Source: Candidatus Xenobia bacterium (GTDB taxonomy: Bacteria; Vulcanimicrobiota; Xenobia; Xenobiales; QWHO01). Taken from it: a stretch of DNA of 64,000 nt. Shown here piece by piece: positions 33,001 to 51,000 of this stretch (the stretch's first letter is position 1; each line of letters starts with the position of its first letter). A program made the position numbers. Location: NCBI GenBank assembly GCA_045863235.1, contig BTUM01000027.1, positions 20,667 through 84,666 of the forward strand, read 5' to 3'.

Positions 33001-36000
33001 CGTCAGGGGCTCCCTTCCTTGGAGGAGTCTGGAAAAAGCTCGCCGAAGCCCGCCGCACAGCCGGATTGTAAGCGAAGCACGCAGCCAGGCTGCGAGCAGA
33101 GCAATCACCTTTGGGAGGAACTTCGTGAGCGAGCAGGCGGGCGACCAGACACTTCAAGATCCGTCCATGAGCAAGCTGAAGGCACAACTGCCGCAAGAAA
33201 CTGCTCAGGCGCCTGAGCCCGAGCGGGTGAATGAGCGCCTGATTCAGCTGGAGGATGCTGCTCGCAAGACAGCCGAGGGTGAGTGGTCGGCTGAAGAGCT
33301 TGGCGAGTTCCTGGACGGCATCATTCGCATTCTCAACGAGCGCGAGCAGCAGATCCGCGAGATCGAGATTCCCCCTGAGGCCGTGGAGGACTTTCGTGAG
33401 GAGCTCGAGGTCGGCTTCTCCGGTATCCAGCTCTACACCGAGGGCGTCCAGCGCATGCTGCTGTTCGTGGAAGACCCCAACCCGGCGCACCTGGAGGAAG
33501 GGCTCGAGCTGGCGCGCCAGGGCAATGACCACATCAACGAGGCCATGCGCATCAACCGCGAGAATCGCCGCAAGCTCGAAGAAATGTACATCGACGCCTC
33601 CACCATGATGTAATGGAGCCCGCCGAAGGACCATGAAAAAAGCCCGGGCTTCGAGGCCCGGGCTTTTTCGTGGTCCGAGATTCAGCTTCGGAAATACTGG
33701 TGCCACATCTCGTTGACGCGTTGCATGGTCATCGCCTGGTTGACGGTCGACTCCTGGAAGGTCTTCATCCAGTAGTCCATGGTTTCTTTCATGATCTTCC
33801 AGCGCTCGGCCTCATGCTTTTGCCGCTCGGCCCAGATCTGCATCCAGATGTCGCGAGCCCCTTCCTGGTCCTGAAGGATCTGCTGCATTCGGCGAGCCTG
33901 GTCAGCCGCGGACATGGTCGGGCCGCCAGGACCACCGGGGCCTCCCGGGCCGGACGGGGGAATCCCGCTCCCGCCGGGCGGAACACCGCCACCACCGGGC
34001 GGGATGCCGCTCCCACCGGGCGGAACGCCGGTCCCCCCAGGGGGAATTCCGCTCCCTCCGGGTACGAATGCGCTGCCCCCAGGAGGCACACCGCCGCCGC
34101 CTCCAGGGGGAAGGCCCGAGCCGCCTCCAGGAGGAGTTGCTCCGCCTCCATTACCGGGCGCCTCGGCCACCGGCGAGGAGAGCAGGCCCGGAGCATTGGT
34201 GGAGCCGAGCAGCTGCTGCGCGGGTGGGCCTTGCAGGGCCAGACCGGACTGCTGGCCGACCAGCTGGTTTCCGCCCGGAGCCACGGGACCGCCGCCGTTG
34301 CCGGCCAGAGTCACCAGGTTCGTCCCGGCGGGAGTGCCGCCCAGGCTGTAGACCAGGCCCCTGCCCGTATTGGCGATCTGCTCCATCAGGCCGTACTGAC
34401 TGAGCTTGTCTCCGTAGGCTTTGAGCTCGGCGTTGCCAGGATCACTGGCCAGTTGAGCCGCGACTTCTTTGCTGGCTGCCTGACGGAAGATATCGATCGC
34501 GGGCGTCTGCTTGCCGGCTGCCCGATCGGCTTCGAACGCCTGGTTCAAAGCATCTCCGAAGGCAGGATTCTTAGCCAGTTGCGGGGGAACGTTGGTGCTG
34601 ATGTCGCCTTCCAGCTGGTTCAGTTGCGCAGAGGCCACATTGATGGCCGCCTGACCAGCGGCCGCGCCACCGGGCAACCCCTGACCCATCAGAGCCTTCC
34701 CCTCGTTCGCGAAGGCTGACTTGAAGCCATCCGGCGCCACCGAGACCAGCTCCACAAGCTGTTTGCCAAGTTGCTCAGGATCAAGAACTTCGGCCTGGCT
34801 CCCCGATTCGGCCCGAGGGGTGTTCTCGCGCCTGACCAGCTCGCGCGACTGGGACTCTTCGCCCTGGCGCGTCTGCTTGGCGCCGGCCTGGCCGGTGAGG
34901 CCCAGGTGGGTCGCGTTCTCCAGGTGCTCAGCGTGACGCTCCTGGTGGCTGAGGGTCACCTCGTCGTTTCGCTGCTCGACGGAGGTTCCGTCCGTCTTGC
35001 GAGTGGTTCCGGTGACCGCAGTCTGGCCCACGTGCTCGGTGCGCTTGACGAGGGCCTGCTGATTCCCGACCGCCGGATTGATGGGACTTCCACTTGTAGC
35101 CACGAAGCTCGCTCCTTTATCCCAGGTGTGTGGAGTATACCAGCCTGCGCTGAAGGCGTAAACGTCGAGTTTGTTTCCAAACTGTAAACAGATGGCCAAT
35201 CCGATAAATGTTAAAGCCCCGGGCGCCTGGAGCGTGGTCGGGCGTCGCGCAGCCGGAAATTGCCTCCGGGGCGCGACGACCACCCATCCACCGAGCCCAG
35301 AAAGCCCGGCGGCATCGGCCTAGCTCTTGATGTAGTCGCTCCATTTGTTGAACATCTTGTCCTGCGTCTTGGCCTGGTTGACGGTCACGTCCTGCTGAAT
35401 CTCGAAAATCTTCGTCTGTGTCTCGCGCAGAATCTTCCAGCGCTCGGCCTGCTGCTTTTGCGTATCGGCCATCATCTGGGTCTGAATGGTCTGGGCCTGC
35501 ATCTGGTCGCTCAGGGCCATCTGGGCGATCGAGGCGGCGTTGGCGGCTCCACCGATGAGTAACATGGTCGGTCCCTCCTGATTCTCTCTCTATCCCTCAA
35601 AAGTAGACGAAAGCTCTGAAAAAAAGCTGAGGGGCCGGCCTTGCGACCGACCCCGCAGAGAAAGCCCCACCCGATACAGGGACTTAGCTCTTGATATAGT
35701 CGCTCCACTTGTTGAACATCTTGTCCTGCGTCTTGGCCTGGTTGACCGTGACGTCCTGCTGAATTTCGAAGATCTTGGTCTGCGTCTCGCGCAGAATCTT
35801 CCAGCGCTCGGCCTGCTGCTTCTGCGTATCGGCCATCATCTGGGTCTGAATGGTCTGGGCCTGCATCTGGTCGCTCAGGGCCATCTGGGCGATCGAGGCG
35901 GCGTTGGCTGCTCCACCAATGAGTAGCATTGTTTTCGGTCCTCCCGGGTGTGTTATTTTTGACTTCTCTGTCTTGGGACTTCTATCACGCGCCCGGGCCG

Positions 36001-48000: not shown

Positions 48001-51000
48001 ACCGCGGGACTTGAAGTTAGCGGACGAGACCCAGCGCGGACTGGGTCAGTTTGTCCATGGCGCGGAAGGCGGCCATGTTCGCTTCGTAGTTCTGCTTGGC
48101 CATACCGATGGCGGCGGCCTGCTGGGCGAAATCGACGTTGGCCAGTTCGAGGCTACCGGGAGCCACGCTACCCAGGGCACCCTGACCGGCCACACCGACA
48201 ACCGAGCCACCCGAGTGCTCGGACTCGGCGAAGGTCGTCGTTCCGGTCTTCTTCAAGGCGCTGGGATTGGCGAAAGAGGCCACACCCACCTGATAGAGCG
48301 GCGTTGAGGTGGTGATGGTCTGGTTGGTCACCGGGTCGGTCAGAGTGGACTCGCCGTAGAGCTTGCCCGTCTCGTCGAAGTGGAACCCTGTGTATTTCCC
48401 GGCATACAGCTTGGTCTGGGGATCCAGCGAAAGGTCAATGGCCCCGAGGTCACCCGAGATGTTGCCCTGCGCGTCAAGCTTGAAGCCCTGCACGCGCTTG
48501 CCGTCTTGCATACAGAGCTGCCCGTTCTGCCAGGTGAAGCGGCCGTCTCGGGTGTAGTGATTCTTGACGCCATCGGAAACCATGAAGAAACCCTGTCCGT
48601 TCATCGCCAGGTTGGTCGGCGTCTGGGTTTTGAAAATCTGACCCTGGCTAAAGACGATGCCGCCGTGGCGGGTCTGGGCGCCACCCGACATCGTCTGGTT
48701 CATGATGTCAGAGAACTGAACGGTTTCCGCCTTGTAACCCGGAGTGAACTGGTTCTTCAAGTTCTCCGAGTAAGTGTTCAGCATCTCCTGGTTCTGCATG
48801 ATCGAGCTGACCTGATAATTGAAATCAAACATCCCGCGAAGCGTCCTCCTTCTTGTTGAACCCTCTGTGTGTGTTTCTACAGAACTGCGCGCCCTTGACT
48901 TCCCGTTCTCATTCTAGACCTGTATCGTTGCCGCAGGTTTACCGCGGTGTTAACACGATGTTAACATGGTCGCCCCAAACCGGCCGGGTAGGACGAAGAG
49001 GCCCGCGACAGCACACGGTTTGCCGTGTACCCGCGGGCCCCCGAAGCCCACCTCGGTGCTCAGACCGTCTCGACGAGCTTGACGGTAACCTCGTTGAGCC
49101 GAACGCCCCTGTCGGCCACCTTGGAGCGCAGCTCTTCCTCGTTCTCTTCGATCACTTCGCGGGTGGTGCGCGAGGTGGTCTCAAACTCGGCTTTGATCCC
49201 GTCCTTGCCGTGCACGAGCTTGATCCGCAAATCGCCAAGATACTCGGGATTGAGCTTCAAGCTGAGCTCGGTCTTGTTGGCCAGGTTGCGCACCTCGATG
49301 TGCTGCAGAACCTGGTCGATGACCAACTGTCGGTTCTGACGCGCGTCTTCAGCCTGATTCTGAGCTCTGACCTCGGTCGACAACTGGACCGAGCGCAGCT
49401 CGCGCGCCAGGTCTTTCTGGGGCTGGCTCTCACCCACCAGTTTCTCGAACTCTTTGCCGTCGCGCTCTTGCTCTCGCTCACGCACCAACTGATCGAGTGC
49501 GCTGGAGACCTGGTTGCGCGCGCCATCGCGCGTGACCATGGCCAGTTGGGTGAAGGAGAGGTCGCGGAACTGCAGTCCTCGCTCGGTCAACATCCCTCGC
49601 AGGTCGTGCAGGCCAACAGAGGAAAACTCGGCCAATCGCATCGACTGTTTTTCGCCCAGGGACAAGGTGTCGGGATTCTTGTAGGCCAGATCGAAAAGGT
49701 AGCCGTTCAGCTTGCTCATGTGCTTCTGTTGAAGCTTCTGGTCGAGGTTCTCGGCCCGCTCAGCCTCGGCTTTTCTGGCGGATTCCTTGGGCTCGTCCTT
49801 CTTGGACGTCTTTTCATCAGAGATGATCGTACGGGTCTTGCCGGATTCTTCCCTATCCCCCGTGGCTTTGTCCAGCTCCCTCGAGAAAGCGTCGGCATCG
49901 CCTTTCTCTCTGGTGGTCTTGGTGCTGGTCGGTGAAGCCCCGGAGGTACCGACTATGGTGGCGATCAGCGGATTTTCCATTCAAACACCCCTCATTGCGA
50001 TTTTTCTCCTGAGAAAAGCTTAGAAACTGGACCCTCCAGACTGCTGCTTGTAGCGCTGGTAGTTGTCGAGCACCACCGACACGTAGTGCTGGGTTTCGGC
50101 GTAGGGAGGAATGCCTCCCGACTGCATGACCGCCCCCGGACCGGCGTTGTAGGCGGCGATGGCTTTGGTCATGTTACCCTGGAAGGTATCGAGCATCTGG
50201 CGGAGGTACTTGGTGCCGCCCATGATGTTTTGATAGGGATCGAAGCCGTCCGTGACCCCAAGCTCGGCGGCCGTCTCGGGCATCAGTTGCATGAGCCCCA
50301 TGGCCCCACAGTGCGACTCGGCTTTCGGGTTATAGGCCGATTCTTGCTTGATGACGGCGCGGATGAGAGCCTCATCAACGTTGTATTTCCCTGAGGCCTC
50401 TTTGATCATCCCGTCGTAGTCGCTCGGCTCGCCCGCCCAGCGCCCGCTCGAAGGGCTGCTTGGCCGAGCGGCCGTGGCTGGCTTCTTCTCCTGGGCCAGC
50501 GAGTTGACCAGGTTCTCAAAGGTGACCGCCTCGCTGGAGCGGGTCTGACCGCTAACCAGGTGAGAGGGCGCGCCAGACTGGGTAATATAGCCCTTCTGGC
50601 CCCCCATCCGGGCGTCCAGCTGCTGAAGCTTCAGCTCCAGCGCCTTGATGCGATCCATGGACATGCCGGGTTCCTCCTTCGCTATCCGGGACTGCGATGG
50701 CAACACCACGTTAAGCCGGGTGGTAGGCCGGAGGAAGTCCAGGGGGCGATTGGGCGCATACTCAGTATAGCTGTCCAGCCTCCCGGGGTCAACATTCCGA
50801 CTTCCCTCCGGTCGCCTGCTCGCGAGCGAACTTGATGGTAGCGAGCTCGTCGATCATCTTGGCTTCCTCGTAGTCCATCTCGGCCTGCCAGGCCTCCTGG
50901 CTCTGCTCCTTGTGTTTTTCGTAAGTTTTTCGCTTCATGGCGGCTTTGAGAAGATTCTCTCGCTGTTGGACGATCGCGATGGCAAGTTCTTGCAGGCGAA

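What a model noticed while it worked through the whole genome (the two positions that open the first line are those of the whole stretch)
33682..49034. A CtrA-like direct repeat GTTAACA-N4-GTTAAC regulon links the flagellar-type secretion genes to secreted proteases and r [...]
A second direct-repeat motif with 11-bp period (core TTAA-N7-TTAAC, the CtrA box pattern) lies before about 350-380 genes. They include the rod/hook operon and helix proteins of the secretion locus (g03376, g03359), FliF paralogues, an accessory SecA, a group-2 sigma factor, half of the subtilases and clostripains, microviridin precursors and many low-complexity orphan proteins. The secretome is thus split between two repeat-binding regulators.
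Evidence so far: Dyad discovery; PWM 383 genes, 36 shuffled, 236 unannotated, overlap with TTCAG set 28; TAACA-N6-TAAC 22 against 1-3 for other spacers, TTAA-N7-TTAA 20 against 0-3. 23 of 47 S8/C11 proteases against 377 of 4810 genes. One exact 17-mer pattern hits 4 of 4 f1, 16 of 16 f2, 4 of 4 f4/f5 and 2 of 19 f3 genomes; reversed control near 0.
(Added by a program. Inside this text positions count along the whole contig: contig position 20,667 is position 1 of the stretch shown here. "Call 12" and the like, gene names such as g00115 and contig names such as C1 are that model's own, and its searches are not shown. The text may have been shortened before it was handed on; [...] marks where a part breaks off. 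The agent that wrote the report below was given it as the finding of a first reader that could run no searches.)

Follow-up and report, generated by a model that had tools for sequence, protein, structure and literature searches.

The report
Master switch for Xenobia protein secretion
A short repeated DNA signal sits at a fixed spot in several hundred promoters of these uncultured bacteria, including those of a flagellum-derived secretion machine and many proteins it probably exports, and it is most likely read by one highly conserved two-component regulator.

Summary
The repeat is real: 440 of 4569 upstream regions score against 22-43 after shuffling. The window has strong sites before flgB, the flgG-like gene and the helix-protein genes. 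Three corrections. (1) The position is sharp: a -10 box follows 21-22 nt later, or whole helical turns further, so this looks like an activator site centred near -42. (2) It is not CtrA-specific: 19 of 440 sites hold TTAA-N7-TTAA, and the MtrA, WalR and ArcA boxes fit as well. (3) It is wider than stated: it occurs across most families of the phylum (Vulcanimicrobiota/Xenobia) and persists at secretion-locus promoters in the small f3 genomes. The best candidate reader is a WalR/MtrA-like response regulator (G000:C4:205130-205825) with a near-invariant recognition helix, the only OmpR protein shared by the near-complete small genomes tested. Binding is inferred, not shown. Targets are poor in Sec signals and rich in type III-like N-termini; the genome has no flagellin or MotB. 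Scan look-ups showed no earlier report of this regulon, and the paper searches found none.

The parts
58759..58786 (-). Three-repeat array (GTTAAC-N5-GTTAAC-N5-GCTAAT) in the flgB operon promoter
   Evidence: composite score 21.6; kept in G001, G006, G008, G010, G013, G030, G048, G052
58732..58737 (-). Predicted -10 box TACACT, 32 nt after the second repeat
   Evidence: same 32-nt gap in relatives
49060..58586 (-). flgB-flgC-fliE-fliF-fliG-fliG-fliH-fliI-fliJ-SLT-fliK genes downstream of that promoter
   Evidence: Pfam; single transcript not shown
48938..48965 (-). Three-repeat array (GTTAAC-N5-GTTAAC-N5-GGTAAA) before the flgG-like gene; best-scoring promoter in the genome
   Evidence: kept in G006, G010, G030, G040, G042, G048, G052
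48911..48916 (-). Predicted -10 box TAGAAT; start of transcription inferred at 48904-48906
   Evidence: one RNA-library contig of 4 runs ends at 48905 (weak hint)
48017..48832 (-). flgG/flgE-like rod or hook gene
   Evidence: Pfam
40054..47839 (-). fliM-fliN-fliN-fliO-fliP-(two 97-99 aa genes, fliQ by position, not scanned)-fliR-flhB-flhA export apparatus
   Evidence: Pfam; gene calls
36462..36478 (-). Repeat site before the first 81-aa helix-protein gene; the -10 assignment is uncertain here
   Evidence: score 12.4; sites before orthologues in G005, G011, G015, G027, G045, G058
35320..36385 (-). Three copies of an 81-aa all-helical protein (35320-35565, 35684-35929, 36140-36385); candidate filament subunit
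   Evidence: model is one long helix, pLDDT 86.8; HrpA-pilin-like lead only
35616..35632 (-). TTCAG-type repeat before the last 81-aa copy, 10 nt upstream of a -10 box (35600-35605)
35173..35189 (-). Repeat site GTTTAC-N5-GGAAAC with -10 TATACT at 35134-35139 (gap 33)
   Evidence: composite score 17.2
33682..35103 (-). 473-aa protein that contains a region like the 81-aa helix protein; no Pfam family
26389..26457 (-). Repeat sites (26441-26457 and 26389-26405) before a 338-aa low-complexity orphan gene (25309-26325); -10 TAAGAT at 26362-26367
28910..28926 (+). Repeat site with -10 TATCGT at gap 33 before a short ORF (28995-29114)
   Evidence: composite score 12.9; the gene call is uncertain
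14355..14371 (+). Repeat site before a 125-aa orphan with a type III-like N-terminus; no clear -10

Best explanation
The motif, consensus TG(T/G)(T/C)(A/C/T)ACA repeated head to tail every 11 bp in 2-4 copies, is the binding site of an OmpR/PhoB-family activator. Shown: it is directional, intergenic, conserved at orthologous promoters and fixed 21-22 nt (or 32-33, 41-44, 52-54) upstream of a sigma70-type -10 box in promoters without a -35 consensus. Inferred: phosphorylated dimers bind in tandem near -42 and recruit RNA polymerase. Inferred: it switches on together a flagellum-derived secretion machine that lacks flagellin and motor, its likely filament and translocator, and a few hundred scattered genes whose products carry type III-like N-termini (subtilases, clostripains, orphans), which fits a predatory or host-attacking state. 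A second regulator with the TTTCAG repeat covers another share of such genes. Odds: real activator site 0.95; OmpR family 0.85; this particular protein 0.7; regulon largely the type III secretome 0.7.
For: -10 (TAnnnT) at gap 21/22 in 102 of 440 sites against 3.1 per position in the background; in non-divergent genes 38 of 173 on the sense strand and 1 of 173 antisense. ATG lies 6-7 nt after that -10 in 30 of 143, as for leaderless mRNAs. 169 of 174 promoters have 3 or more mismatches to TTGACA. Asymmetric half-sites pair forward-forward 19 times against 2, 1 and 2 for the other orientations in 2259 regions. 258 strong hits in 0.97 Mb intergenic, 13 in 7.39 Mb coding. 9 of the 10 relatives fetched keep a site at a secretion-locus promoter. 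The regulator is found in 53 of 61 genomes, 94-100% identical in f1, f2 and the f3 genera g8/g9; neither it nor the motif nor this FlhA was found in the two f15 genomes. Its recognition helix is identical in 21 of 25 orthologues and differs by conservative changes in 4. Its nearest solved relatives are MtrA and WalR/VicR, whose published boxes match. It is the only OmpR protein common to G000, G006, G045, G048 and G058. SARP, LytTR, LuxR, MerR and HTH_17 gave no shared candidate. G048 has 45 GTTAAC+(-10) hits and 0 TTCAG hits. Hydrophobic N-termini 6.6% against 22.7%, type III-like N-termini 26% against 4%. A HrpK1/HrpF translocator-domain gene is in the set. No flagellin or MotB plug in G000.
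Against: No binding, start-site or secretion data. The regulator has no site before its own gene or operon (score 4.8). G031 (97% complete, 7% contaminated) has 7 motif hits but no match to the regulator. The regulator keeps its DNA-reading head in g3/g6/g7, where the genome-wide motif signal is at control level; this is explained only if a few core sites suffice. Only seven DNA-binding families were screened, in 5 genomes. Only about a quarter of targets pass my crude type III score, and the cross-regulon classifier is modest (AUC 0.74-0.78, internal-segment control 0.61-0.64), so part of the signal is whole-protein composition. My gene starts are error-prone. About half of the composite hits at score 10 persist under shifted gaps (307 vs 143-169). 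Three of 4 RNA runs do not end at the predicted flgG-like start, and none ends at the predicted flgB start.
Confidence: 0.65

Rival explanations
1. The site is a real activator box but is read by another, unscreened DNA-binding protein, while the conserved response regulator has a different small regulon.
For: No autoregulatory site; head unchanged where the regulon has shrunk; one near-complete motif-positive genome lacks a match; many regulator families were not screened.
Against: An 11-bp tandem repeat matching MtrA/WalR boxes, and a WalR/MtrA-like protein with the same range; core sites persist in g3.
Confidence: 0.2
2. The regulon is a general growth-state or envelope regulon of the WalR/MtrA kind; secretion genes and low-complexity orphans are simply a large part of it, and the proteases are not type III substrates.
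For: Targets include kinases, HTH regulators, a sigma factor and some Sec-signal proteins; about three quarters do not pass the type III score.
Against: ftsZ and dnaA do not score; the most conserved sites are at secretion-locus promoters; Sec signals are depleted, p=5e-13.
Confidence: 0.12
3. It is a Pho box: a phosphate-starvation regulon expanded to hydrolases.
For: Streptomyces PHO boxes are 11-nt repeats with GTTCACC, a common half-site here; the nearest named outside relatives include clostridial proteins that score against both YycF and PhoB models, below cut-off.
Against: No pstS in G000 and only in 12 of 61 relatives; pstS promoters of G050, G056 and G059 show a different CTTAAC repeat, and G048's two score 3.9 and 6.5; G048 has a separate PhoB-like regulator beside pstS.
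Confidence: 0.05
4. It is an artefact of AT-rich promoter DNA or a variant -35 element read by a sigma factor.
For: TTAACA resembles TTGACA; shifted-spacer controls are well above shuffles.
Against: The spacer to -10 would be 20-21 nt; there are peaks at whole helical turns and arrays of up to four repeats; sites are conserved between genomes of 40% and 66% G+C.
Confidence: 0.02

Closest known systems
MtrA of Corynebacterium glutamicum and Streptomyces (OmpR family)
   Same: Box (A/G)TAACAATttn(A/G)TAACAAT, 8-bp repeat plus 3-bp linker, upstream of -35 when activating (PMC3353115, passages); best total fit to the PWM; best solved-structure hit for the candidate regulator.
   Different: Below the NCBIfam MtrA cut-off (268 vs 300); partner kinase is soluble; targets are a secretion system rather than cell wall genes.
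WalR/YycF/VicR of Bacillota
   Same: Box TGTWAH-N5-TGTWAH (bioRxiv 10.1101/2022.04.01.486798, passage), matched exactly by 39 of 440 sites; best NCBIfam model for the candidate; near-identical recognition helix.
   Different: Below cut-off (291.5 vs 340); kinase matches only the cytoplasmic part of WalK; upstream neighbours are pgeF and a radical SAM gene.
CtrA of Caulobacter
   Same: TTAA at an 11-bp period in the strongest sites; a global regulator that activates flagellar genes (PMC4287350 and PMC11264516, passages).
   Different: Only 19 of 440 sites hold TTAA-N7-TTAA; the box starts near -49, not -35/-39; no ChpT found; CtrA is not among the 25 best of 73 NCBIfam matches shown.
ArcA of Escherichia coli
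   Same: TGTTA repeats at 11 bp in arrays of 2-5 (PMC4173790, passages).
   Different: ArcA represses there by covering the promoter; here the array sits upstream of -35. The candidate scores 177 vs cut-off 334.
Type III secretion master regulators (HrpL, HrpG/HrpX, HilA; recalled, only HrpL seen in a search listing)
   Same: One promoter motif marks both the apparatus and scattered substrates.
   Different: Different phylum, an apparatus that keeps flagellar rod, C-ring and FliK genes, and a regulon roughly ten times larger.

Membership tests
OmpR/PhoB-family response-regulator site | Head-to-tail direct repeat at 10-11 bp | tested here: met
OmpR/PhoB-family response-regulator site | Fixed position relative to the promoter | tested here: met
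OmpR/PhoB-family response-regulator site | A REC + Trans_reg_C protein with matching distribution | tested here: met
   one exception, G031
OmpR/PhoB-family response-regulator site | Phosphorylation-dependent binding of that protein | not testable with these tools
   needs EMSA or DAP-seq
CtrA regulon | TTAA-N7-TTAA consensus | tested here: not met
   19 of 440 sites
CtrA regulon | Full site begins near -35/-39 | tested here: not met
   about -49 from the inferred start against PMC4287350
CtrA regulon | CckA-ChpT phosphorelay | tested here: not met
   no PF10090 match in G000; control rang in Caulobacter
CtrA regulon | Flagellar basal-body genes among targets | tested here: met
   flgB and flgG-like promoters
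WalRK | NCBIfam YycF and WalK cut-offs | tested here: not met
   291.5 vs 340 and 240 vs 725
WalRK | TGTWAH-N5-TGTWAH box | tested here: inconclusive
   39 of 440 exact; the PWM is compatible
WalRK | Essentiality and autolysin control | not testable with these tools
   uncultured lineage
MtrAB | NCBIfam MtrA and MtrB cut-offs | tested here: not met
   268 vs 300 and 131 vs 450
MtrAB | lpqB in the operon | not tested
   genes downstream of the kinase were not annotated
Pho regulon | Box upstream of pstS | tested here: not met
SARP regulon | A SARP protein in motif-rich genomes | tested here: not met
   G045, G048, G055 and G058 have only weak partial BTAD hits
Motile flagellum | Flagellin and MotB | tested here: not met
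   none in G000, 97.6% complete
Non-flagellar type III secretion system | Export apparatus plus translocator | tested here: met
   (HrpK1/HrpF domain, E=1.6e-24)
Non-flagellar type III secretion system | Needle or pilus subunit | tested here: inconclusive
   no Pfam match; ESM Atlas lead to HrpA-pilin clusters where 23-24% carry the family
Non-flagellar type III secretion system | Secretin | not tested
   no search run

The most novel reading that the evidence does not exclude
Most of the Vulcanimicrobiota outside f15 carry a flagellum-derived injection system that arose separately from the classical injectisome, with an HrpA-like filament and several hundred exported enzymes, all under one WalR/MtrA-like master regulator with a soluble kinase; the promoter box is then a direct genome-wide catalogue of the substrates.
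Probability: 0.4. Interest if true: 0.88.

Novelty: new variant of a known kind. Interest (0 to 1): 0.7.

Why it matters
It gives the first regulatory map I could find for an almost uncultured phylum proposed to include predators rich in natural-product clusters (PMC9259500, passages and supplement search). It names one testable regulator, a precise promoter geometry and several hundred candidate substrates, 16 of 23 sampled without a Pfam family. The regulatory logic itself is textbook OmpR; the surprise is the scale, the depth of conservation and the use of a WalR/MtrA-like regulator for secretion.

Tried and rejected
Palindrome read by a CRP- or LysR-type dimer: rejected, the variants are directional. 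A third repeat explaining the 32-33 gap: present in only 14% of 91 against 4% control, so most such promoters seem to act from one turn further out. SARP, LytTR, LuxR, MerR/HspR and HTH_17 readers: no shared candidate in G006, G045, G048, G058 and G000 (one search used G030 and G055 in place of G006 and G053). The second OmpR protein (G000:C58) was not found in G048 or any f3 genome. Loss of the regulon in f3: first read, then rejected because core sites persist. Faster divergence of the regulator in g3/g6/g7 (distance ratio to FlhA 1.1-1.4 vs 0.27 in g8) falls outside the DNA-reading head and is weak support. FlhA scan of genome contigs gave mostly distant hits. RNA runs were contigs only and cannot map starts or levels. 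No complex prediction was run. Scan look-ups were empty.
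Full report
Setting. The window is G000:C27:20667-84666 of an 8.36 Mb, 65.8% G+C genome, 97.6% complete. Named records holding the closest relatives of a conserved gene are labelled Vulcanimicrobiota, Ca. Xenobia, Ca. Eremiobacteraeota, UBP9 and Ca. Bruticola; earlier scan notes gave the same lead.

The observation. The dyad gives 10 matches in the window against 0.14 expected, in four promoters. Genome-wide it peaks at period 11 with 134 intergenic and 17 coding hits. 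An EM model converges on TG(T/G)(T/C)(A/C/T)ACA twice; 440 of 4569 upstream regions score 8 or more, against 22-43 in five shuffles and 81-181 with shifted spacers. Strong hits are about 150 times denser between genes than inside them.

Anatomy. The perfect form is self-complementary, but the common variants (GTTCAC, GTTTAC, GGTAAC, GGCAAC, GTCAAC) point the same way in both halves: 19 forward-forward pairs against 2, 1 and 2 in 2259 non-divergent regions. A TAnnnT box follows at 21 or 22 nt in 102 of 440 sites, with further peaks at 32-33, 41-42 and 52-54, over a background of 3.1 per position. In non-divergent genes this holds on the sense strand (38 of 173) and not the antisense strand (1 of 173). 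ATG lies 6-7 nt after the box in 30 of 143 cases, which fixes the start independently. 169 of 174 such promoters lack a -35 consensus (consensus recalled). The pair of repeats therefore spans about -50 to -34. The TTTCAG repeat has a different geometry, 10 nt before the -10 box in 162 of 301.

Range. The exact 17-mer occurs in 33 of 61 genomes, including 14 of 17 outside the class; G048 (2.5 Mb, about 40% G+C) has 168 strand hits in arrays of up to four. The reversed control is a weak test in AT-rich genomes. A pattern with the -10 box hits 42 of 61. The small f3 genera g3, g6 and g7 show no genome-wide excess, but G006, G008 and G010 keep sites at flgB with the same 32-nt gap; 9 of the 10 genomes fetched for this test have a site at a secretion-locus promoter, and the tenth (G014) stretch lacked the rod promoters. 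The regulon has shrunk there, not vanished. The two f15 genomes have no hit.

The reader protein. G000 has 13 full OmpR-type regulators. G006, G045 and G048 have 3 each and G058 has 4; one orthologous group is common to all. It is found in 53 of 61 genomes and not in f15; five of the six other misses are genomes 62-86% complete, and G031 (97%) is an unexplained miss. The recognition helix is identical in 21 of 25 aligned orthologues. Nearest solved relatives are MtrA and WalR/VicR; it passes none of the 25 best NCBIfam cut-offs shown. The adjacent kinase is 348 aa and matches only cytoplasmic parts of WalK and PhoR models. Published boxes for MtrA (PMC3353115 and PMC5650626, passages), WalR (bioRxiv 10.1101/2022.04.01.486798, passage) and ArcA (PMC4173790, passages) all resemble this motif; CtrA scores highest per base but on only 8 bases, and 19 of 440 sites carry it. 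Other families gave no shared candidate. Against: no autoregulatory site and no binding data.

Targets. The locus encodes the full export apparatus, C-ring, rod and FliK, but G000 has no flagellin or MotB; 45 and 43 of 61 genomes likewise have none, while this FlhA is conserved. Targets include a HrpK1/HrpF-domain protein, 24 of 47 S8/C11 proteases, carboxypeptidases, two FliF paralogues, a sigma70 factor and a SecA paralogue with a long low-complexity N-terminal extension. Hydrophobic N-termini are depleted (6.6% of 301 vs 22.7% of 3679) and S/T/P/Q-rich ones enriched (26% vs 4%). A classifier trained on one regulon recognises the other (AUC 0.74 and 0.78; internal control 0.61 and 0.64). Export by the type III route is an inference from these crude scores. 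The locus is covered by contigs in RNA libraries of three sludge, wastewater or bioreactor studies; one contig ends at the predicted flgG-like start and the others do not, a weak hint only.

Literature. Searches on Xenobia, Eremiobacterota, Vulcanimicrobiota and Eudoremicrobiaceae with secretion, regulator, regulon and motif terms found no description of this regulon (listings only). PMC9259500 (passages and supplement search) proposes predation and notes secretion systems, without regulators. PMC11484240 (passages) has no mention of secretion. The library lacks most subscription papers.

Verdict. A real, lineage-wide activator regulon of ordinary OmpR logic, most likely read by a WalR/MtrA-like regulator and not by CtrA, applied to an unusual flagellum-derived secretion system. 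New variant of a known kind; interest 0.7.

Noticed in passing
window 35320-36385 and paralogues on G000 C3, C69, C74, C78: The 81-aa protein folds as one long helix and its nearest ESM Atlas clusters include HrpA-pilin and HrpE-like proteins; candidate filament subunit, a lead only.
   Followed up: partly
G000 genome-wide: The TTTCAG repeat sits exactly 10 nt before the -10 box in 162 of 301 promoters; abundant in f1, f2 and f4, absent from G045, G047 and G048. Its reader is unknown. It resembles the HilA box as I recall it (not checked).
   Followed up: partly
G000:C37:15094-18480 (-): SecA paralogue whose reading frame stays open about 115 codons upstream of my called start, giving a low-complexity N-terminal extension right after a motif promoter.
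   Followed up: partly
G000 C80:28012-29436, C3:26973-28175, C1:377631-378872, C107:13658-15829, C106:14866-16857: Five proteins match only about half of FlhA (26-36% identity); similar C-terminal-half matches recur in relatives.
   Followed up: no
G000 and relatives: No pstS in G000 and in 49 of 61 genomes searched.
   Followed up: partly
L333, L336, L338 (pstS upstream regions): A CTTAAC-N5-(C/G)TTAA repeat upstream of pstS in G050, G056 and G059, a likely Pho box distinct from this motif.
   Followed up: no
L111-L120 (G048): A CC(C/T)TTATA element recurs about 10 nt outside the arrays on the side away from the gene; unexplained.
   Followed up: no
window 36817-40035: An aminotransferase and a homocysteine methyltransferase-MTHFR fusion lie between flhA and the helix-protein genes.
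   Followed up: no
window 1956-7955: Bacterial alpha-2-macroglobulin, a protease trap, on the same contig.
   Followed up: no
G000:C74:3-3983: A second piece of the locus with two more rod-like genes and a truncated sigma factor that looks FliA-like by eye; the first gene of the run has a strong site.
   Followed up: no
G000 genome-wide: Some arrays alternate 11- and 9-bp spacing, giving a 20-bp peak.
   Followed up: no
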